Origin: Ophelia neglecta
Lineage: Eukaryota
NCBI GenBank assembly: GCA_965285935.1
Contig: OZ260662.1
Span: forward strand, 18,848,001-18,912,000
Direction of reading: 5' to 3'
DNA: 64,000 nucleotides
The translations under genes and the position numbers were made by a program. Numbering within the stretch: the stretch's first letter is position 1; every line of letters starts with the position of its first letter. The notes beneath the pieces are model-generated. The model did not search any database, was not told the origin of the DNA, and saw nothing but the letters and a program-made list of their open reading frames with translations. Shown piece after piece: positions 18,701 through 61,021 of the stretch.

Positions 18701-21700
18701 ACACCAGAATTACATTGGAGCCGATTCGGAGAAGGAACCATTTTTTCTGTCGGTTGTATTAACAGATGCCAATAACCACAACGTACCACAGTATCGGGCG
18801 ATATTGTGTCGAAAAACGGTGAGATTTAATACCTCGTGAATGAAGAACATCATTGGCCTCTGACTCAATAATCTGTGTTCCTTATTTTCACTCAGGTTGT
18901 GCTAAACCTAAAACAGATGCGATGCCATAAACGAAATGCACCTTTTTGCACCAACACATGAAAAGCCTCTTTATTGCTTAACTAATGAGATAACCTTTTT
19001 CTTGATGTTCGGATATGAAATCGGCCCTTTAACCTCGTATATGCCAGTATATTTCTCATATAACCTCGAGCATGCGGAGCGAGTTTTGACAGGTGTTTAG
19101 AAATAAAAAATTGCAATATAAGGCTTGAAGATTTGATGTCACCACTGATGGCGTTATCATCAAGTTAATTATTAGAATTATCAATTGTTTTTGATACCAA
19201 ATGACAATATGTGTTCTGTTCCTGTTGGCTGTTTTCTTTCATAAATCATTGGAATGCCACCGACTACCCCCCCCCCCCCCTCCCCAACCCCAGCTTCCAC
19301 CAATCTATTTCGATTTCTGATCAATGGCTCTTGTTCTTCAATGGATTATAGTTTTTATTTCCTTTCCAAATGATCATCAAATTGCATTTTTTAAATTTTT
19401 TAAATTTCACCTTTTGTCTTGCAGGGTAACCAAAAGATATATCTACCCTACAGCCCTAGTAAACCCATGACAGTTAAAGGCATATTAAGGTACTGATTAT
19501 ATCGTTTGATTTTGTACTGATAAATTATGCAAAACTAATTCTATTTCAAGTATTTAGTATGTCATTGCCCTATTGAATTGCTTAACGCGAAAAATATTAT
19601 TGTCAGGAAGTTCACATGCCAGGCAGTAGAAATCTGTGCTGGTTGGACACCACGAAAAGCAAAACGCTGTTCCGAGTGGACCTAGACGCCAAAGGGCGAT
19701 ACAACTCTCTGCTTAGTGGAAAGTAGACTTTAGAGGGCAATTCGTCTCTCTACTGAGAGAACAGTGGAACCAGAGGGCGTTACAACTCTCCGCCGAATGG
19801 ACATTAGAAACCAGAGGGCGTTATAACTCTCTGTGAGGATAGTAGACGCTAGAGGGCATTAAATATCACTTCTGAACGGATGATAGACGCCAGAGGGCGT
19901 TAAAACTCCCTGTCGACTGTACAGTGAATGCCAGAGAGCGTAGGAGCTCTCTGCTAAAGGGACAGTCGAAACTAGAGGGCGTTACAATGTCTTTGCTATG
20001 TGGACAGTAGACGCCAGAGGGCGTTACAGCTAACTGCTAAGTGGACAGTAGACGCCAGAGGACGTTACAGCTATCTGCTAAGTGGACAGTAGACGCAAGA
20101 GGGCGTTACAGCTATCTGCTAAGTGGACAGTAGACGCCAGAGGGGGTTACGGCTATCTGCTAAGTGGAGGTAAACGACAGAGGGCTATACAATCCTCTGC
20201 CGGGTGGACAGTAGACCCCAGAGATCGTTACAATGCTCTGCAGATTTGAGAGTAGACGTATATGACGTAGCATCAGAGCTCTGCGGAGCTGCTAGTAAAC
20301 GCCAGAGGTCGTTGTAACTAACTGCTGAATGGAAAATAGAAAACAGAGGGCGTAAACACTCTACTGAAAAGCCAGAGGACGCAACAACCCCTTCGGGGGG
20401 GAGCGTTACATCTCTTAGCAGCTTAGTGCATAGTACATGCAAGAAAACGTTACAGCTCTCCGCTGGGTGGACAGATGACGCCGCATTACAGCTCTCTGCT
20501 GGGAGGGCAGTAGACGCCACAGGACATTACAGCTCTCTGCTGGGTTGACAGTAGACGCCACAGGAAGTTACAAATATTTGCTGGGTTGGCAGAGGACGCC
20601 ACAGGACATTACAGCTCTCTGCTGGGAGGGCAGTAGACCCCACAGGACATTACAGCTCTCTGCAGGGAAGGCAGTAGACGCCACAGGAATTTACAACTCT
20701 GCTGGGTTGGCAGAGGATGCCACAGGACATTACAGCTCTCTGCTGGGAGGGCAGTAGACGCCACAGGATATTAACGCTCTCTGCTCGGTTGACATTAGGC
20801 GCCAGGGGCCATTACAGCTTTTTGCTGTGTGAAAACCAAATATAAGCTACAGTGATTTGTTCACAATTATCAATCCCTCTAATAATAAAAGAAAAATAAT
20901 TAGTATCCACTATTAACGAGTTAAATTAGTGATAGCCGCACGCATGTGCATGTGACGTATCATTTATTTACTTATTACATATATGCAAACTTAATCTTAC
21001 TGGAGCCATGCTGTTTAAAGTAATGTATATCATCTCTGCAGTCATTTTGACGTAAATAAAGTGGAGAAAGGACCAAAAGAGATATTCAACCCTGAAATCC
21101 AGAAAGAATTGCTTGTATTAGAAGAGCAAGAGGTAAGTTACCCATTGGAAAATATATAGAGATAAAATATGTTAAGCTAAACAATAAACACGTATAGCCA
21201 ATTCATCAGTGTGTGGCAAAATAAATGTAAAGCTATTTATCAATATACAATGTATTTGACTTTGATCATTATTGCCTGCTTATCATAGAGTAGTTTGATG
21301 AAAAATGTACATGCACTTCGGTGGGAAAAAGCCTCTTTATGTACAGATAATCTTACTTTTTATAGGGATCCGTGAATTTTAAGTTTGGTGTACTCTTTGC
21401 TAAAGAAGGCCAGGTCTCGGATGATGAAATGTATAGTAACGGTAGGGGCGGTTACTGAAACTTTTTATGCTGATTAGAAAAACCAATCATGTTAGTATAA
21501 ACCAGGACATCATGGCACGCGGGAAAACATGGCCATAATTGTGCGATAATCGAGAATTATAGAGAAAACTTGTGCACGATTTTTTTCGCTCACCATATAT
21601 TAATAAAACTGGTAGTTTTCTATCATGCGTGTTTGATCACAAAAATGTTATTGGTTCAGGGCATTGATTTTGACATCATTATAAGGATATTAGTGGAATT

Positions 21701-36086: not shown

Positions 36087-39000
36087 CGTGTATTTTGTGG
36101 TAATAATTTTGACTCTATTCATTCAATAGATCTTATATATTATCTTTATTAAGATAAAGAACAGTGGAAAAAAAGGTTTATCCAAAACACAAGTTTAAAG
36201 TCCATGTAGGTTTTAACAAAAACCAATATATATATATATATGTTATCATACTAAACATACAAGTAACACAATAGTTAAGAATTCTCGAATACATGTAATT
36301 AGATAAAAGAAAGATACATAACCGATAACATGACAAATTAAGAATACGCATTTGTTTTTTCACGATGGCATTTTCATAATGGTTAGAGATTAAACGCGGA
36401 GTTATAAAGTCCCAGGCGGAAGTTGATGTCATTCAATGACGTCATTGAAGGAAGGCAGGAAGCGAAAACTTTAAAGGGTTCGAACTTGGTTTGGGTTTCA
36501 TTTTAGGCACAAGGAATGGGCTAAGAGTATGGTTATTCAAATCTAGTGCTGCCTCCTAATCTCAGGTTTCAACTTCTCTAAGCCTCCCTACTTCCGCAAA
36601 TGAACTTCAACAGTGGTTTCGATCTGCCAGGTTTACCCCATTGTTTTCGTCTCCTTGGATTTTTATGTACACTTTTGATGACACTCTGACAATAAACAAT
36701 GCAGCTGTGTCATATTTACCTGGCAGGGGAATCGCTTGCCCAGGTTCAAGCACAAGTGAATATTTTGCCCGTTTTGGGGTTTATATGGTAAACACAGTAG
36801 CTGGGTTATTTAAATAATATTTCTGGATAAATTTAGAAGGCGCGAAGCAGGAAATACTAATATTGGGGGCGGTGAGATCAAAAGGCAGAGGGGGTGTATA
36901 TTTATATGCGTACACGGATTGTTTTATTACCATCAATCTCCAGCTCCCAGCAGTAAATCAAGTTGTAAAGCAAATACAAGTTAATGAAAGCATAAATTTG
37001 ATATCACTTATAATGAGAAGTAGTCACCAGTTTTCCATTATGTAGGTGAGCACGCAAAACAAATGAGACAGTTTTCAACGTCCGACAGAGATGAAATATG
37101 CTCTCGAAGAGTCTATAATGGTCTTCGCTCTCTCAAAATATATTGAAAGTAATGGTGATATTGTCTCAAAAAAAGGTCCTGTACACGGTGCTACCTACGC
37201 TATGTGCCTGGACCTGCCGCTCACGGGGAATGACTTGCCCCTAGCCCTAGGATGAGTAGAATTGATCACTCAAAGCAAATACAGTCTAATACGGCGTAGG
37301 TGTTCAAACAATGGCAACAAGGCCCTACACAAGGACAGTCTAAAAGGAATCATCCATCATATTTTGGCTGTCCTCGAGTTTGATCAAATCCAAAATAATC
37401 GGATTCGACAAGTCCTCGAGGCCGTGTGTTATATTTAGATAAATTGGTGGATTACTTGAACTATGGGAGTGTTCATTATTGATGCCCTGGCTAGAGGTGG
37501 GGGGGGGGGGGGAACTTGAATAAAGGCTCAAAGGGAATAAATGCGTGCCTTTTGTTGGATTTTAAGAAACATATTGGTCGCAATGCATGGAAATGTAGAT
37601 ACGTATAAGCTGAATATTTTTTGCATAATACCTGGATGTGGGCTTGATTGATGAAATACTAGTAGCAGCAATAAACCTCTGAAGGTTGATAAGTGTCCAA
37701 GTAAAAAAAGGGACATGATTACCACCTTTTTAATAGGTGAAATTCTCTTTCAAACGTAAAACATATGCTACGAACTACACTTATCATGCTTCTATACCCT
37801 GACATCTGGGAATACAGTGAATACTAAATTTTCATCTTAATTTAACGAAGGGTTCTTGCCAAACTAAGGAATATCCGAAAGAAGTTTTCACTTTTTGTCA
37901 AAGGAATTTTCCTTGAGACAGCTTGGAGCTTTTAAGAAAGAAAATGGATTTAACTAAGAAAAAGAAAACAAATGAGGGAAGAGCATGGGCATTCAGGAGG
38001 TTATATTTTTTTTCTGATTAAAAAGCAGGTAAAATTGTGTTTCTCCAGAAAGGACATGTAATTGGAAAAAAGGAAACTTTGGGGCTTTACTGCAACTTTC
38101 CGGGTAATTGAAAAAAAAATTGCATACCAATTAATACATTCTGGCGTTTGGTGGACTTTTTTTTAACTTTGTGTAAAGAAAATATTATTTTTGTTATACA
38201 TCTTTACAGACATCTTATCGAACTGAATTATGCTGCAAGCACTGAATGCATGAATACAATTTGTAAGCAAACATGTACAACACTTGTGCATGGCATAGAG
38301 GATACACACAATTTGCTAATCAATTAACTCAATGAGATTAATTATTATTAATAGCATACTTCAAATTGTTTCAGCACAACAAAATATACATATATATATA
38401 TATATATATCAATGGAGTCTTAAATAAATTAGCTTACATGACAACTGAATTTCTTAAATTAGTCTTGTATAAACGTCAAATAAAAGAACAGTTTAATTTA
38501 ACTAACATTGCCTTATATGTAAACACAAGGACCTTTGTGTTAACAGCGAAGGCGAAAGGTGCGGCGAAAACAGCATTGGTAGCACAATAATCAATAATAT
38601 CCGTCATTTTATCACCCAAACCTTACCCAAACATCTCTGATTTGTTCTTGATACAAGGGGTAAGGGTGGGGTTATTATTGTGAATCAAAGCCCACAACGG
38701 GTATCCGTTGCATCCATTATAAAACCAGACTTACCGACCAATTTTCTTGTTAGTAGTATCTCTGTTGTCTATCTTACGACGGGTTATGCTATTAAAATGA
38801 GGATGAACTGAGTGAGCAGTTATATACTCATGCCTATGGAATCTCTGTCTACGCCTTCTTATGCAGGCGGACGATTTGGCACGCACACTTATGCGACCGG
38901 AGAGCATAATTAATATATGTATAAAATATAGCCACAAGTGGAAATTCGAATTTCATTCCAAGAAAAGTAAAAGCCGGAAGGTTATCCTTTCCATATTTGA

Positions 39001-49600: not shown

Positions 49601-51499
49601 TACATAACATATAAACAATTGTAGGTTATAATTCCATTCTAATAATAAATTCCCAGTGGAACCTGGATTGTTTTAGTTTCGTCCAAAGATATTTTTGACA
49701 TAATAACAATTACAAATTGTATAATTATAGTCTTTTGAATATACGCTTGTCTTGACTTATAAGGTGTTAATGAGTTAAGGTACTCATACATACCACATCG
49801 TTTATGTTAAATAATCGTTTAGTTAGCGTCTACCATTGCTATTGTTACCTTATAAGTGAGGGTTGCATAACAAATTATTTACATTTTCTATTGAAGCCGA
49901 TTGAGGTTCGTGCCCAGTAATTAGTGTAGCTACACATTTTTAAACATGTTACCAACCGTTGAGATATTATGTACCTTAACACCTCTGCCACTCTGTTTCC
50001 GGATGCCAGGGCGTTGCGGACAGGTTGTCGTGTAAGCGTGCGTCCGGCGAAGACTAACAAGGGACACGCCTTGGTATCGTTCGTGTTTTTTAATACTAAA
50101 ATAACCACACTCGATCATAGTGTTTCCTGTTTAAGTCGTCCCTGCGACACTCACTTCGCTCTATTCTAAACTAAGTCAGCAATGGACCTACCATTAACCT
50201 TTTGGTTTCCCAGAAATGCACAGAGTATGTCATAAAGAACATCCGCATATATATTTCGTCTTATCCGTATCGCTTTTTTTGTACACCGAAAGGAGGCCTA
50301 GACACTAAACAGTTTCAAATGTTATTTGTGTTCTAACATTTTTGCTGTAATAATGGCCCCTGTAGCATGTAGATTATAAGCATTTTTTTATTTTTAAACT
50401 TTTGGATAAATATTTATTAAAATTGAGGCAAAAGCTCCAGGTTACAACGGACTTTTTCAAATTCGCGATAAAATGTTCACAACTATATCCAAATGTAACA
50501 CCCCTATTGAGGACTTGCGGACTGAAATTAAAGATTCAATCAGGCCTGAAGTGAGTAACGTTAAATCTACTAACGACGACTCTCCATTATGACTGCTCGT
50601 GTGTTGGTTTGAGCAGCCATTGTTTTAAAACCTAGGAACTAAAAGACTGCAATGGCTTTGAGTGATCATTCCAACTCATACTGATAGAAAAGTGTATGTT
50701 GCCGCTGCACCAGATTCAGTTACAATAAAAGCGGCACTGGTTCGCCTAATAGTTTACATCTTACTTACCATCGAGGAGAATCAGTACCCGTTTCTTCTTT
50801 GATATGCGTGGACCTTTCCATGCTTCTCAGGTCTTGTGTTTATCTGAGTACCGGTATCTGGCGCCCGGTTGGCCAAAGCACTCCCCGTGTACGGAATGGT
50901 CAGATAATGAGCGGGTATAGCGCTAGGTGGAAGCACCCGTTTTTTGAGACAATTTTATCACTAGTCTTAACAAGTTTGTGAGAGCGTAGACCAGTATAGA
51001 CTCTCCAAGGGCACTTTTCACCTCTGTCCTACGTTAACCACTCAGTCGTTTGTTTTGTGTTCTGCCCGCATCGTGGAAAATTTGGGTCTACTGCACATAG
51101 CAAGCGATATCAATTGTTTGCTTTCATTAACTATTTTTTTTCATTACAAGTTTATTTTACTAATTGGGAACCGGAGATTAATGTTTTGTTGTGTGTGGGC
51201 CTATCGCTGCTGGTTCCCTGATGATTTCGGACCTATTTTATGAACTATTGTCGACAGATTGCTTTCCTTCTTTTGTCTGCCGGGTATCCACTTCCGTTTT
51301 TAAGGGCTGAGTAGGCGTGCACGAAGTGATGATCGAATAGCATCAGTGAGTGTATCTACTGGTTAACCAGTTAACATTCGAGAGATCATTTTCCCAGCCA
51401 GAATGATTCCAAATGTTGACTGGCAGTGTTTATGCTATTGCATCGGTCGGGGCGTACTAGTTATAGGTAAATCGTGGCTCGTTTCTCATTAAAGGTATA

Positions 51500-51861
51500 T
51501 GTAACTGCAGTAATATCACCGCTAGTTTGTATATGGTGCAACACTTATGCCACCTGGTGAGTGTGGTGGCCGTCTTCCGCCAGTCACCGGTCACGTGGTC
51601 ACATCTGCCATTTTTCGCAGTCTCACTCCGTCACCGTGACATGCGGATGGCTGCGCTGACCAGTCCACAGGCCAAAGAGGTAACTGTTCTTATTGTTCAT
51701 TTGTACTCGTTATTTGTGTCTTATGTTAATCTATGTTAATACGTGACAGATGTGTAAATTCTATGTATTCTTTCAGTTTTACGGAGCTACGAACACCAAT
51801 AAAACTCCTGTTAAAACCTCACGCCTGTTCATGCGTCTTCTGTAAGCTCGGCGCAGCTATA
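51500..51861 (+). repeat. 5' LTR (362 bp)
   Basis: TGTAACTGC...GCAGCTATA; AATAAA at 51798; 8 substitutions versus the 3' LTR by manual comparison. Confidence 0.96.
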
Positions 51862-52878
51862 GTAAAACTCTTCGTCTCGGATCCATTGGTTTGGCTTCCC
51901 TATGCCTAACTCTGGTAATGCCCAACACCATAGACCGTGGGCAGCCAACCATGTATGCAGTCTGCAGTGGCCAGTTAGCCTTCTCTGTGCCAACGTATTT
52001 CGACTCTGTGTCAATGTATTCGGACACTTTCTCCTGCTCATGTGAACCTTCAACACAAACGTGCTAAATCCTGGCACCCTTCCTTCAACGTTCGGGAATA
52101 TCGCCCATCCAGAATCGTCCGGTTGTTCGTCAGGTCTAAACAAGATAGTACTTTGATGGAACTTTTGAACACCGTCCAAGCCATTCACTTCGACAAGCCT
52201 ACACATATTCTGGTAACGCCTGGCATTTATTCTCAACAGTATTGAGCACTTGGTTCCAATGTGACCATTCTGTGGTCTGCCGATGTGACACTTGTGTAGC
52301 GCCATATCTCCGGGTTATCCGCCATCTTGAAAACATTATTGCCTGCCATAATTATTGAAGAATTTGTAATAAAGTGAGAGTTATTATTTGTTTAACATTG
52401 AAATTAGATTATTGAACATTTATTGCAATTTTCTCAGGTTACCAATGAATTATGATTTCAGGATTGAGAAATGCCATTAATTATCGAATATTACTGAATG
52501 CCTACACACCTTGATACTATAGATATTGATTGAATTGATTGTACTTTATTGTAATTGCATGTTTATGGAATGCGTGTAGGTAATTCTTCACATGTCTTCA
52601 CATGTCATTTCGAATTTACGTGCATTTTCTCACATATAAGCCGAAAGGTAAGTCAGTCTTAGACGTTGGCTGCACCAAATTGCTGTACTCTGTGGGAATG
52701 GCTCGAGGTTTGTTCGTGACAGGCTATTGTTGTATAACTTGTATCACTGTTTGCTCATTACTATTCATGGCATCGTTTGTCCTACATGTAAGTGCTAGTT
52801 TCACAACTACATGTGGCGATTAAACTATGTCTTGTCATCTCTTCATTGTCTAACCCACATAGTTTCATCTACATAATT

Positions 52879-55185
52879 ATGGATGTAAATAAAATAAGCA
52901 AGGAAGAACTCCTTGAGATTCATGGGTTTGGCGAAATACGCCCTACAAAGTTCATAGAGTACAGAGATTCTCTAGGCCGTCCTTTAGATAATACTGATAT
53001 ACCCCTCATTGAAGGCATCCCAGAGGCTGTTGTCAGAACAGCTCTAACCCAGGGTATTCTCTATTTGCCTGGGAGCCGGCCCGCTAGTAAAACCCCATCC
53101 AAGACATCATCTCATCCCATCACCATCTCTCGGAAACATTCGCCTCGCCATACAAAGGGATCAGCTTCTCAGAAGAAGTCTGTCTAATCCCATTCGTCCT
53201 CTGGTGGTGGTAAGAGTATACATTCACTTGCTTCAGCTAAAATAGAAGCCGCACTTGAAGCTGCTTCTGACAAATCGAAGTTGAAATATTTTCAGGCTGA
53301 GTCAGAACAAAGGTTAGCTATTGAAAAACAAAAGTTGGCATTAGAACAACTGGAAGCCGTAAGATTGTTAGATACTGCACAAGCTCAACTAGATGTTGTG
53401 GCCCAGCTAGAGAAGGAGGAGAACGGAGATTTCTTTGAGTCAGATTTGCCGGGTGAGGCAGATGATAATTTCGCACTCACTAGATTTTTGCAACAGCCAG
53501 AGATTTCTGAACCAGCTACTGCGCCCGTCGTTCACGAACCAACGTTAGGTTCAAGGGCAGCTAATATGTCCGACACTCTGCCAACACCTGGAGCAGAGAA
53601 TGTTTCTGGCGCCTTGCAGATCCCTGTCTCTCTCTCTCGGGGTAATAGCCCTGCTCTTTCTACTTCGCCCTATGTGACATCTCCCTCTATGAAGTTGATT
53701 ACTTCGGCAACATCATTAGTTGCTCAGCAGCCTGCAGCGACAACCGTTGTATATCCAGCGGTGACATCAATCCCGGTCTCCTTGATATCGACCGAGTCTA
53801 TGCCTTTGTCGAATAAATTCGCCCAAGTGGACTTGCAAGGTTTTGACCCCCTCTACCCTTTAGTTGAGGGAAACTCGCCTGTTGTTTCTCCTGTGCCTAG
53901 GCAGCCCTCGGTGCTTGCACATCCGTCTTTGCAGCCTCGGTTGAATGCAAACCCATATCTCTCGTCTGTGCAGCCTTCGATGGCCACACATCCGTCTCCT
54001 TCGTCTGTTCAAGGACCAGCTTATGTAATGGCTCCCTCGGGAGAAATTTCTATGCCGAACACTGCAGTGGAAAGCACTCTTTCTGTAACTGCCCCGCCGT
54101 GGCATCCGTCTCCTATCCTTCGACATTCTGTTACTCATGTTGGCCAATCTGAATCAGAACATTTAGGATGCTTCAAGCCAACCAGGGCTCCTGTCATGTC
54201 TGCTAGACACAGGAATCGTATGCTCAAGTTGACCATGACAATTCGCTACTATGTTTGATATCAGAACAGCTTGCACTGGGAAGATTGGCTCCCCCTGAAC
54301 CTGGTATTTTTGGTGGAAATCCACTTCAGTATCCAGCTTGGAGGGCAGCCTTTGCTACTTTGGTGGAACAAAGACATGTTTCGCCAAAGGAACGAGTTCA
54401 CTACCTGAGGCGATATCTGTCCGGTACAGCCAAAGAAACAGTAGATGGTTGTTTTATTCTTCCATCGGATGATGCCTTCGAGGAGGCCATGTCTCTGCTA
54501 GAAAAGAGATTCGGTGATTCATTTGTTTTAGCCAGAGCCTTCCGGGACAAGTTATGTACTTGGCCAAAAATTCAACCTCGAGACGGTTTAGGTCTCAGAA
54601 GATTTGCAGATTTCGTCCGCCAGTGCAATGTGGCAATGAAATCTCTTGGTCCCTTGTCAATTCTTAATGACGAAAGGGAGAACCAAAGGTTGTTACAAAG
54701 GTTGCCAGATTGGTAAATTGTTCGCTGGAACCGTGTTGCATCTGTTAGTAGAAGGGACAAGGGCGTTTTTCCCCCGTTTCACGAGTTCGTTGAATTTCTG
54801 GTAGCCGAGGCAGATATTGCCTGTGATTCGGTAACGTCCCTTCAGGCGCTGAAGGACACTTCTGTACCCACTGGTTCTTCGTCGGCACCCACTCCTGCCA
54901 TCAGGACTGTGGTGAACAGGGGTGGTGCTTCTAAAACAGTTTTTGCCTCCACTGCTCAGAACAAAGCTACTACATCTTCAGCTCCTAGGTGTGCTTTCTG
55001 TAAAAAGGCACCCTCTAGATTCTTGTATAGGTTTGTCATCTAGACCTTTGGAAGACCGAAAACAATACATCAAGGAAAATGGACTTTGTTTTGCTTGTTT
55101 GAACCCAAACCACACCTCTAAGTTTTGTAAAGACAGAGCGACATGTAAGACATGTTCTAAGAGGCATCCAACAATACTACATTGA
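52879..55185 (+). pseudogene. gag: BEL/Pao gag region, disrupted: N-terminal HhH domain, coiled coil, Pro/Ser-rich linker, capsid-like (DUF1759-type) domain, three zinc knuckles
   Basis: ATG 52879; in-frame stops at 53185, 54714 and 55183; frameshifts near 54200-54255 and 55005; motifs PEPGIFGGNPLQYPAWRAAF, CAFCKxHPLDSC, CFACLNPNHTSKFC, CKTCSKRHPTILH. Confidence 0.88.
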
Positions 55186-58100: not shown

Positions 58101-59288
58101 CGGTGGTTGGATCAGACAAGCTGATCTTTTGGAGAGGGAAAGGTTCCCTGCTGTGTTACCTCGCAATCATTTTATCTCAAGGTTGATAATTGATTATTGT
58201 CATAAACTTACCCAGCACCAGGGTTGAGGCATGACTGTAAGCGCCATCAGACGGAAGGGCTTCTGGATCGTCGGCTGTAGCTCTGCCGTTGCCTTTCATA
58301 TTCATCGTTGTGTTTTTTGTCGACGATTCAGGGGGCCTCTTCTTACACAGAAAATGGCCGACCTCCCTTTTGATCGTGTTTCCCATGTGCCACCCTTCAC
58401 ACATTGTGGTGTGGACTACTTTGGTCCTTGGCTTGTCAAGGAAGGCCGCAAGACACTGAAAAGATACGGTGTGTTGTTTACATGTTTGTCCTGCCGAGCC
58501 GTGCACATTGAAACTAGTTGTTCTCTTGACACGTCGTCGTTCCTGAATGCCTTGAGGCGTTTCATGTCTATCCGTGGGCCAGTCCGTATACTGAGGTCCG
58601 ATCAAGGCACCAATTTTGTAGGTGCTCAGAATGAATTGAAAGCAGCATTACAGGAGATGGACCAAGACGAAGTCAAGAAATTCTTGCTACGTCGCGATTG
58701 CGATATAGAATTTCTTATGAATCCCCCGAGTGCAAGTCATTTTGGTGGCGTTTGGGAACGGCAAATCCGCTCCATCCGAAACGTTTTGTCTTCTATCTTG
58801 TTTCAGTCTGGTTGTCAGCTGGATGACGAAGCCTAACGCACATTCATGGCAGAGGCTGCAGCCATTGTAAATAGTCGTCCTCTGACAACCGACAATCTAA
58901 ATGATCCGACTTCTCTCTCACCTCTGACCCCAAACATGATTTTGACAATGAAATCTGGTGTCATCGTTTCTCCTCCCGGTGCATTTGAGCAAGCCGACTT
59001 GTACGCCAGAAAACGGTGGCGCCGGGTCCAACGTATTCTGGTCCCGTTGGAAGGCTGAGTATCTTAACACTCTCCAGTCTCGGCAGAAATGGGTACAGGT
59101 TAAACGTAACCTTCGCAATGGTGACGTCGTGCTATTGAAAGAGGAGACTCCTCGTAATCAGTGGCAACTGGCCAGAGTTGTACAGACATATCCTGGTGAC
59201 GACGGTCACGTGCGTAAGGTTAAAATCGTACTTGGAGATTCATCTCTTGACCAGTCAGCAAACTAGTATTACTTGTTGAGTGCGACTA
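55186..59288 (+). pseudogene. pol: BEL/Pao pol region, disrupted: aspartic protease, reverse transcriptase, RNase H, integrase, C-terminal DUF5641-like domain
   Basis: 964-codon open stretch 55333-58227; in-frame stops at 58225 (HQG*GMT) and 58834 (DDEA*RTF); frameshift/deletion near 59030 (RWRRVQ//FWSRW) and near 59255 before KLVLL. Confidence 0.95.
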
Positions 59289-59467: not shown

Positions 59468-59829
59468 CGTAACTGCAGTAATATCACCGCTAGTTTGTAT
59501 ATGGTGCAACACTTATGCCACCTGGTGAGTGTGGTGGCCGTCTTCCGCCAGTCACAGGTCACGTGGTCACATCTGCCATTTTTGGAAGTCTCACTCCGTC
59601 ACCGTGACATGCGGATAGCTGCGCTGACCAGTCCACAGGCCAAAGAGGTAACTGTTCTTATTGTTCATTTGTACTCGTTATTTGTGTCTTATGTTAATCT
59701 ATGTTAATACGTGACAGACGTGTAAATTCTATGGATTCTTTCAGTTTTACGGAGCTTCGAACACCAATAAAACTCCTGTTAAAACCTCACGCCTGTTCAT
59801 GCGTCTTCTGTAAGCTCGGCGCAGCTATA
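59468..59829 (+). repeat. 3' LTR (362 bp)
   Basis: CGTAACTGC...GCAGCTATA, preceded by a purine tract. Confidence 0.96.
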
Positions 59830-59984
59830 GTATATGATAAAATTATTATAGCCTTGGTAAAAAAGATAGGGAGAGTAAACTAAATATTGTATAATCCTTG
59901 GATTTTGGGGCTACTGGGAATGGACAAACGAGTTCAGGGCCGCTTTTTTTTGTACCAGTCAACCCTAGAGTCTTGTACAAGCCC

Positions 59985-61021
59985 TGTTTAGTCCATTCAT
60001 GACTGTCAGAGCTCCGTTTAGTCCGTGTTTGACTGCCAGAGCTCAGATTAGTTCGTGTTTGACTGTCAGAGCTCCGTTTAGTCCGTGTTTGACTGTCAGA
60101 GCTCCGTTTAGTCCGTGTTTGACGGTCAGAGCTCCGTTTAGTCCGTGTTTGACTGTCAGAGCTCCGTTTAGTCCGTGTTTGACTGTCAGAACTTCGTTTA
60201 GTCCGTGCTTGACGGTCAAAGCTACGTTTATTCGTGTTTGACTGTCAGAGCTCCATTTAGTCCGTGTCTGATTGTCAGAGCTGTCAGAGCTCCGTTTAGT
60301 CTGTTTTTGACTGTCAGAGCTCCATTTAGTCCGTGTTTGACTGTCAGAACTCCGTTTAGTCCGTGTCTGATTGTCAGAGATCCGTTTAGTCCGTGTTTGA
60401 CTGTCAGAGCTACGTTTAGTCCGTGTTTGACTGTCAGAGCTCCGTTTAGCCCGTGTTTGACTGTCAGGGCTCCGTTTAGTCCGTGTTTGACTGTCAGGGC
60501 TCCGTTTAGTCCGTGTTTGACTGTCAGAGCTACGTCCGTGTTTGACTGTCAGAGCTCCGTTTAGTCCGTGTTTGACTGTCAGGGCTCCGTTTAGTCCGTG
60601 TTTGACTGTCAGAGCTCAGTTTAGTCCGTGTTTGACTGTCAGGGCTACGTTTAGTCCGTGTTTGACTGTCAGGGCTACGTTAAGTCCGTGTTTAATTGTC
60701 AGAGATCCGTTTATTCCGTGGTTTCCTGTCAGAGCTCCGTTTAGTCCGTGTTTGACTGTCAGGGATCCGTTTAGTCCGTGTTTGACTGTCAGAGCTCCGT
60801 TTAGTCCGTGTTTGACTGTCAGAGATCCGTTAAGTCCGTGTTTAATTGTCAGAGATCCGTTAAGTCCGTGTTTGACTGTCAGAGTTCCGTTTAGTCCGTG
60901 TTTGACGGTCAGAGCTCCGTTTAGTCCGTGTTTGACTGTCAGAGCTCCGTTAAGTCCGTGTTAAATTGTCAGAGATCCGTTTAGTCCGTGTTAAATTGTC
61001 AGAGATCCGTTAAGTCCGTGT
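59985..61021. repeat. 30-bp tandem array (~34 units)
   Basis: Unit TTTGACTGTCAGAGCTCCGTTTAGTCCGTG with few variants and small indels. Confidence 0.97.

What the first reader, a model, noticed from the sequence alone, without database searches (positions are those of the whole stretch)
52879..53060. ComEA-like helix-hairpin-helix domain at the N-terminus of a BEL/Pao Gag
Seen: MDVNKISKEELLEIHGFGEIRPTKFIEYRDSLGRPLDNTDIPLIEGIPEAVV follows the ComEA-type double-HhH pattern (xNxxSxEELxxhxGhG...hhEYR...DhxxhxGI). It is in frame with the downstream Gag coiled coil, separated only by one TAA at 53185. Established: HhH modules bind DNA without sequence specificity; the accessory N-terminal module usually noted in BEL/Pao Gag is a PHD finger. 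Inference: a captured nucleic-acid-binding module for cDNA handling or integration targeting.
Basis: partly seen in the sequence, partly recalled or inferred. Interest (0 to 1): 0.7.

Follow-up and report, generated by a model that had tools for sequence, protein, structure and literature searches.

The report
BEL/Pao Gag with swapped-in HhH domain
One branch of BEL/Pao jumping genes in this animal genome has a coat protein whose usual front end is replaced by a conserved helix-hairpin-helix domain of the ComEA DNA-binding type, likely taken from Gypsy jumping genes in the same genome and predicted to help the particle grip DNA.

Summary
Confirmed. Residues 1-64 match Pfam HHH_3 (E 6e-4, below cut-off). 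A five-subfamily profile hits EEPD1 and ComEA structures (E 1e-5, 7e-5), and the predicted fold matches ComEA best (Z 8.1, rmsd 1.9 Å). The TAA at 53185 is damage in this copy: 21 of 25 siblings read through, none stop, and relatives carry the domain at the start of one ~2,100-aa Gag-Pol frame. Nonsynonymous change stays low while synonymous sites are saturated. The five HhH subfamilies form one clade among relatives that start with a predicted three-helix domain instead (HhH in 0 of 120 external, 0 of 60 other in-genome BEL loci). About 13 Ty3/Gypsy families in this genome carry the same module, and two are the BEL domain's closest matches, so Gypsy-to-BEL transfer is likely but not proven (p-AU 0.17). 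The ComEA DNA-contact position is an invariant Arg; the second hairpin is degenerate. DNA binding and chromatin tethering are inferred, untested. The scan earlier noted HhH-Gag in a sea-urchin Gypsy, not in BEL.

The parts
51495..51499 (+). 5' target-site duplication (GTATA)
   Evidence: the LTR end is fixed by a sibling with a different flank
51500..51861 (+). 5' LTR, 362 bp, TG...TA ends
   Evidence: 8 mismatches to the 3' LTR
51862..52878 (+). about 1 kb AT-rich leader before the Gag start codon
   Evidence: sequence
52879..53070 (+). ComEA/HHH_3-type double HhH domain, Gag residues 1-64; HhH1 G16-F-G18 with R21; HhH2 degenerate (G-I-P)
53071..53223 (+). basic Ser/Lys/Arg-rich linker; holds this copy's TAA at 53185-53187
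   Evidence: 18-29% identity between subfamilies
53224..53478 (+). helical, coiled-coil-like segment shared with HhH-less BEL relatives (bounds approximate)
   Evidence: alignment; identity 31-60%
53479..54200 (+). Pro/Ser/Thr-rich low-complexity spacer; frameshift near its end in this copy (bounds approximate)
54309..54650 (+). Gag core, DUF1759 (capsid role inferred); stop at 54714-54716 in this copy
   Evidence: (E 6.6e-13)
54985..55182 (+). Cys-His box region, damaged by a frameshift near 55005; stop at 55183-55185
   Evidence: three boxes intact in relative L031
55186..59263 (+). pol: protease, RT, Peptidase_A17 region, integrase, DUF5641; stops at 58225-58227 and 58834-58836, frameshift near 59030
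59468..59829 (+). 3' LTR, 362 bp
59830..59834 (+). 3' target-site duplication (GTATA)

Best explanation
In one clade of BEL/Pao retrotransposons Gag begins with a conserved ComEA-type double helix-hairpin-helix domain in place of the usual N-terminal helical domain, likely acquired by recombination from a co-resident Ty3/Gypsy lineage, and predicted to give the assembled particle a multivalent, sequence-independent grip on DNA that likely tethers it to host chromatin before integration. Shown: fold class, in-frame position at the start of Gag-Pol, purifying selection, one clade, loss of the old domain. Inferred: donor and direction; DNA binding through hairpin 1 (G-h-G-x-x-R); avidity from many Gag copies; outward display on a long flexible spacer; the tethering role, by analogy with MLV p12 and foamy-virus Gag. 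My odds: real conserved HhH domain over 0.95, Gypsy donor about 0.75, binds DNA about 0.65, chromatin tether in particular about 0.4.
For: Fold: profiles hit EEPD1 and ComEA; pLDDT 82.5; ComEA 8dss Z 8.1, rmsd 1.9 over 59 residues; then Tex, ComEA 2duy, TEFM. In frame: L031, L032, L034 have one 2090-2113-aa frame from the HhH Met through DUF1759, Peptidase_A17, integrase and DUF5641; 21 of 25 siblings have a sense codon at the window's stop, 0 a stop, 4 lack the site. Selection: between BEL subfamilies pN 0.15-0.44 against saturated pS 0.74-0.98; domain identity 48-77% against 18-32% in the linkers. Single gain: the 5 subfamilies form one clade (100*; 99* with two gag-less copies inside). Replacement: none of the 5 HhH Gags matches a profile of the helical N-terminal domain that close relatives match at E 1e-20 to 1e-27; that domain is predicted as three long helices. 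Donor: a 23-row Gypsy RT clade (99*) has the HhH in 20 rows, the 3 others being deleted copies of HhH families, and 0 of 7 outgroup rows have it; Gypsy L043/L045 score highest against the BEL domains (mean 133 and 118, against 90 or less for ComEA-type and 56 for host EEPD1) and group with them at 82/92. Function: R21 is invariant in BEL and L043/L045 and sits three residues after the first G-h-G, the position I read as ComEA K63/K164, needed for DNA binding (PMC3879209, PMC9747964, passages). Lone (HhH)2 domains bind weakly and gain from numbers (PMC12988330, passages). The Ty3 capsid N-terminus runs outward (PMC6525542, passages).
Against: No binding, localisation or expression data. The domain is net acidic (-1 to -4), although many ComEA-type domains in that alignment are too. 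Hairpin 2 has Pro in place of the last Gly, and several other Gypsy families lack a basic residue after hairpin 1, so DNA contact may be lost in part of the family. The 67-column domain tree does not reject Gypsy monophyly (p-AU 0.173), so the transfer rests on similarity and nesting; L043/L045 were also found by searching with the BEL domain. No DNA similarity survives between BEL and Gypsy 5' regions. HhH-BEL copies are not significantly more distal on chromosomes than other BEL copies (p 0.27-0.28). Where the domain lies in a BEL particle, and whether protease removes it, is unknown.
Confidence: 0.42

Rival explanations
1. Same domain and origin, but it acts on the element's own cDNA: many copies bridge and compact the reverse transcript, as the host protein BAF does for retroviruses, limiting suicidal autointegration or degradation.
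For: Same fold and selection evidence. BAF binds the DNA backbone non-specifically and compacts it, and autointegration threatens retroelements (abstract starts of PMC8606531 and PMC2644782); that BAF uses HhH motifs is recalled. Needs no insertion bias, which fits for BEL.
Against: The domain lies about 400 residues before the capsid core, at the end that points outward in Ty3; nucleic-acid handling inside is already served by the Cys-His boxes.
Confidence: 0.2
2. The HhH is now a folding or protein-interaction module that stands in for the lost three-helix domain (Gag trafficking, assembly, host-factor binding), with DNA binding vestigial.
For: It takes the exact place of a helical domain; net acidic; hairpin 2 degenerate; basic residue lost in several Gypsy families. 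(HhH)2 domains mediate dimerisation in XPF-ERCC1 (PMC12988330, passage).
Against: G16, G18, R21 and K24 are invariant across five BEL subfamilies at saturated synonymous distance; these are the hairpin residues used for DNA backbone contact in ComEA.
Confidence: 0.2
3. It binds RNA (own genomic RNA or tRNA) or RNA:DNA hybrid and helps packaging or nuclear export, as HhH domains act in the transcription proteins Tex, Spt6 and TEFM.
For: Tex (Z 7.5), TEFM (6.2) and Spt6 (5.0) are among the top fold matches; Tex is tied with ComEA.
Against: Sequence profiles rank EEPD1 and ComEA first; BEL Gag has three Cys-His boxes for RNA (PMC554778, passages).
Confidence: 0.12
4. On origin only: BEL captured the HhH independently from a cellular or bacterial gene, or BEL was the donor to the L043/L045 Gypsy branch.
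For: Gypsy monophyly not rejected (p-AU 0.173); BEL and L043/L045 domains are closer to ComEA-type sequences than most other Gypsy domains are. The host has its own HHH_3 genes.
Against: Host HHH_3 domains score 26-56 against BEL, L043/L045 score 118-133; BEL and L043/L045 share R21, P35-L36, D40, I44, P48 and a C-terminal L-x-F-P-like tail that cellular domains lack. The HhH spans a whole diverse Gypsy clade but one small BEL clade.
Confidence: 0.25

Closest known systems
ComEA DNA-binding domain / EEPD1 (HhH)2 (Pfam HHH_3 PF12836; PDB 8dss, 2duy, 9yi2)
   Same: Same predicted fold (Z 8.1, rmsd 1.9, 59 aligned); N-x(6)-L start, G-h-G hairpin 1 and a basic residue at the K63/K164 position.
   Different: Hairpin 2 is G-h-P; it sits at the N-terminus of a retrotransposon polyprotein; below the Pfam cut-off in BEL copies; DNA binding not shown.
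Canonical BEL/Pao (Belpaoviridae) Gag-Pol; relatives from starfish, molluscs, nemerteans, fish and corals (probably the Sinbad/Dan/Sailor part of the tree, not tested with reference elements)
   Same: Single Gag-Pol frame, DUF1759, triple Cys-His box, PR-RT-RH-IN order, DUF5641, LTRs, 5-bp TSD.
   Different: The roughly 125-aa N-terminal domain (R-x-R-x-x-T-E-K-G-like motif plus three predicted helices) is replaced by the HhH.
HhH-Gag Ty3/Gypsy clade of this genome (L043, L045 and others; external Gag P0271; earlier scan note on a sea-urchin Gypsy)
   Same: HhH at the very start of Gag; 29-42% identity without gaps between BEL and L043/L045 domains.
   Different: Different retrotransposon family: separate gag and pol frames, one zinc knuckle, a third ORF in several.
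MLV p12 and foamy-virus Gag chromatin-binding sequence
   Same: Gag-encoded part proposed to tether a capsid-containing complex to chromatin (PMC6021111, abstract).
   Different: Those are short peptides that bind nucleosomal histones; this is a folded DNA-backbone-type domain, and tethering is only inferred.
Cer1 CERV/Gag 'H domain' (C. elegans Gypsy; PMC10309623, one passage)
   Same: Described as a helix-hairpin-helix in a region that holds a leucine zipper shared with Gag; the only retrotransposon hit for the phrase.
   Different: Holds a leucine zipper and is not described there as ComEA-like; homology to this domain was not tested.

Membership tests
ComEA-type (HhH)2 / HHH_3 | Profile match to HHH_3 at the curated cut-off (27 bits) | tested here: not met
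   Window copy 20.3 bits, E 6e-4; 5 of 5 BEL domains match, best E 8.7e-5. Gypsy L057 and L058 Gags pass, at 30 and 29.4 bits.
ComEA-type (HhH)2 / HHH_3 | Reciprocal profile match to solved members | tested here: met
   EEPD1 and ComEA are the top hits at E 5e-8 to 7e-5.
ComEA-type (HhH)2 / HHH_3 | Compact two-HhH fold | tested here: met
   Predicted model, pLDDT 82.5; best match ComEA 8dss Z 8.1, rmsd 1.9, 59 residues. Foldseek E-values were weak (0.26), prob 0.98, TM 0.70.
ComEA-type (HhH)2 / HHH_3 | Hairpin 1 G-h-G followed by the DNA-contacting basic residue | tested here: met
   G16, G18, R21 invariant in 5 of 5 BEL subfamilies and in L043/L045.
ComEA-type (HhH)2 / HHH_3 | Hairpin 2 G-h-G | tested here: not met
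   G-h-P in 4 of 5 BEL subfamilies, D-I-P in the fifth.
ComEA-type (HhH)2 / HHH_3 | Sequence-independent dsDNA binding | not testable with these tools
   Needs a binding assay.
BEL/Pao (Belpaoviridae) | Peptidase_A17, DUF1759 and DUF5641 in PR-RT-RH-IN order | tested here: met
BEL/Pao (Belpaoviridae) | Triple Cys-His box; YVDD in RT | tested here: met
   Three boxes and YVDD in clade member L031; YVDD in the window frame; definition from PMC554778. Box 1 is frameshifted in the window copy.
BEL/Pao (Belpaoviridae) | LTRs with target-site duplication | tested here: met
   362-bp LTRs, GTATA duplication; ends are TG...TA.
BEL/Pao (Belpaoviridae) | Named clade (Sinbad, Dan, Sparrow and so on) | not tested
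   No reference elements were placed in the tree.
Gag-borne chromatin tether (p12 / foamy CBS type) | Binds nucleosomes and brings capsid to chromatin | not testable with these tools
   Only a crude position test: BEL not significant, Gypsy p 0.018 with non-independent copies.

The most novel reading that the evidence does not exclude
A DNA-gripping HhH module has moved between two retrotransposon families (Metaviridae to Belpaoviridae) inside one host lineage, displaced the native Gag N-terminal domain, and now acts as a Gag-encoded chromatin or cDNA clamp: a folded-domain counterpart of MLV p12 or an element-encoded BAF, showing that the Gag N-terminus is an exchangeable slot across reverse-transcribing virus families.
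Probability: 0.4. Interest if true: 0.75.

Novelty: new variant of a known kind. Interest (0 to 1): 0.6.

Why it matters
What the N-terminal part of BEL/Pao Gag does, and how these elements reach their integration sites, is little studied. A clean swap of that part for a recognisable DNA-binding fold, kept under selection in five diverged subfamilies, gives a small testable handle on the question. It is also a candidate case of a Gag module moving between two retrotransposon families, with donor and recipient in the same genome. My searches found no paper describing a ComEA-type HhH on BEL or Gypsy Gag; subscription journals, Repbase and GyDB entries and supplements were not covered.

Tried and rejected
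Chance resemblance: rejected (profiles, fold, selection). Separate short ORF or programmed readthrough at 53185: rejected, as 21 of 25 siblings have a sense codon and none a stop. Direct capture from the host's EEPD1-, Tex/SRBD1- or TEFM-like genes: disfavoured by low scores (the Tex-like exon fragment was not scored). Search for external HhH-BEL: none among 17 candidates of 1162-3698 aa, none among the 120 listed of 373 Gag-protease relatives, none in metagenome contigs (412 pattern matches, 0 confirmed); these searches need shared words, so absence is not shown. The 1.84-billion-protein profile search gave 4071 hits whose best 150 are all multi-HhH proteins, so single-domain Gags could not surface. 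The Gypsy Gag profile search ran on a capped candidate set and gave 2 hits, one (P0271) with an HhH-like start. ESM Atlas: no usable hit for the BEL N-terminus, only generic Gag clusters under 0.9 for the Gypsy Gag. Homodimer prediction: no answer, score 0.13. Position test: post hoc, main chromosomes only, loci within 0.3 Mb merged, copies not independent; Gypsy p 0.018, BEL p 0.27-0.28. Viral contigs was not scanned successfully.

Full report
1. Observation. It lies about 1 kb inside a full-length BEL/Pao element with 362-bp LTRs at 51500-51861 and 59468-59829 (8 mismatches) and a GTATA target-site duplication. DUF1759, Peptidase_A17, rve and DUF5641 follow in BEL order. This copy is dead: it has further stops and three frameshifts.

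2. Is it an HhH? The window's residues 2-52 match HHH_3 at E 6e-4, below the curated cut-off, and the only PDB sequence hits are two ComEA chains and EEPD1, all weak. Profiles of natural relatives settle it: EEPD1 5e-8 and ComEA 4.5e-7 with 7 rows, 1.4e-5 and 7.1e-5 with the 5 BEL rows alone. The AlphaFold2 model (pLDDT 82.5) matches ComEA 8dss best among 48,161 chains (Z 8.1, rmsd 1.9, 59 aligned), followed by Tex, a second ComEA, TEFM, DNA polymerase III and KIF22; Foldseek gave the same top folds at weak E-values. Hairpin 1 keeps G-h-G and an invariant Arg21, at the position I align with ComEA K63/K164, which is needed for DNA binding (passages of PMC3879209 and PMC9747964). Hairpin 2 ends in Pro, not Gly.

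3. Is it part of Gag? The genome has 89 matches to the domain. Among the 25 closest siblings, 21 have an in-frame sense codon at the window's stop, none has a stop and 4 lack the site. In three related subfamilies (L031, L032, L034) one frame of 2090-2113 aa runs from the HhH Met to the integrase C-terminus. Between the five BEL subfamilies synonymous sites are saturated (pS 0.74-0.98) while pN is 0.15-0.44. The domain keeps 48-77% identity, near the protease region (59-70%) and far above the flanking linkers (18-32%). It is a maintained part of Gag.

4. It is a replacement, gained once. No HhH was found in 120 external relatives (the best 120 of 373 found) or in six frames of 60 other BEL loci of this genome; some of these are 5'-truncated and so uninformative. 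On a protease-RT-RNase H tree of 145 rows the five HhH subfamilies form one clade (100*) nested among HhH-less elements. With 20 more loci the clade held at 99*, with two copies inside it that lack gag altogether. The relatives begin instead with an R-x-R-x-x-T-E-K-G-like motif and a domain predicted as three long helices. A profile of that domain, built from 76 of the 120 external proteins, matches 97 of the 120 and close in-genome relatives at E 1e-20 to 1e-27, but none of the 5 HhH Gags. Homology resumes at the Ser-rich linker and the helical segment behind it.

5. Where it came from. A scan of the genome with HHH_3 gave 65 matches. Of 20 fetched, 4 were cellular-type genes (EEPD1-, Tex/SRBD1- and TEFM-like by sequence, names partly recalled, and one unnamed) and 16 were Gag N-termini of Ty3/Gypsy elements. 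On an RT tree of 30 rows these Gypsy elements form a clade of 23 rows (99*, about 13 families); 20 carry the HhH, the other 3 are deleted copies of HhH families, and 0 of 7 outgroup rows have it (the tool flags long-branch joins at the base). The BEL domains are most like those of Gypsy L043 and L045 (mean scores 133 and 118; ComEA-type 60-90; host genes 26-56), align without gaps and group with them at 82/92. A tree holding all Gypsy domains together is not rejected (p-AU 0.173). So transfer from Gypsy to BEL is the best reading, from nesting and similarity, and not a demonstrated event.

6. How it likely works. Gag is laid out as HhH, basic linker, coiled-coil-like helix, about 270 low-complexity residues, capsid core, three Cys-His boxes. 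Lone (HhH)2 domains bind DNA weakly and gain from copy number (passages of PMC12988330); an assembled shell would supply many copies. In Ty3 the capsid N-terminus runs outward (passages of PMC6525542), so by analogy the domain would face host DNA on a long tether, doing the job that p12 does for MLV (abstract of PMC6021111). All of this is inference. Against it: the domain is net acidic, hairpin 2 is degenerate, several Gypsy families have lost the basic residue, and HhH-BEL copies show no significant positional bias. Rivals are BAF-like compaction of the element's own cDNA, a purely protein-interaction role, and RNA binding.

7. Literature. Full-text searches for helix-hairpin-helix or HhH with BEL, gag or retrotransposon gave 0, 3 and 2 papers. 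The only retrotransposon case is the Cer1 'H domain', described as holding a leucine zipper (one passage of PMC10309623). Term searches inside three surveys found no mention of 'helix' or 'helix-hairpin', or of PHD (PMC3118150, PMC8321522, PMC2774666), and likewise in PMC554778. PMC6238403 was read in passages for clade names only; PMC3286476's PHD mention is a host gene. Supplements, subscription journals and repeat databases were not seen and could hold a mention.

8. Verdict. A real, conserved ComEA-type domain swapped into the N-terminus of one BEL/Pao clade, probably from a co-resident Gypsy lineage; function untested. New variant of a known kind; interest 0.6.

Noticed in passing
G000:C7 about 87.80-87.86 Mb (L008-L014, L019, L042): Head-to-tail array of at least 8 units, about 5.5 kb each, of an internally deleted copy of the window's family that keeps the LTR, the HhH-Gag frame (up to 1261 aa) and the 3' end but lacks most of pol; units share single LTRs.
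   Followed up: partly
L045:7946-9490, L065:1-860, L067:1-1945, L069:4343-5281, L058:1-963: The HhH-Gypsy clade has a third ORF after pol. In L045 it starts with a B-box (PF00643, E 1e-4) and a coiled-coil-like stretch; L045, L067 and L069 share a C-P-x-C...H...H-L-P-W motif; L065, L067 and L058 have no Pfam match.
   Followed up: partly
L053:1-1188 (G000:C1 about 101.52 Mb): Single-exon-like frame (668 aa open) with one strong HHH_3 domain (E 1e-13) and no other Pfam match in the 396 aa scanned; not a Gag by what was seen; groups with the second EEPD1 domain.
   Followed up: partly
window 51500-51861 and 59468-59829: LTRs of this family end in TA, not the usual CA (usual end recalled); the same end is seen in siblings. 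8 of 362 mismatches point to a fairly young insertion.
   Followed up: yes
window 59990-61010: Tandem array of a 30-bp unit starting about 160 bp after the 3' LTR.
   Followed up: no
window 19690-20870: Tandem array of a diverged unit of about 41 bp.
   Followed up: no
window 36970-37350 and 50580-51140: Diverged inverted copies (71-75%) about 13-14 kb apart, probably two copies of an old repeat.
   Followed up: no
main chromosomes of G000 (places): HhH-Gypsy copies lie nearer chromosome ends than other Gypsy copies (median relative distance 0.13-0.17 against 0.31-0.34, p 0.018; copies not independent).
   Followed up: partly
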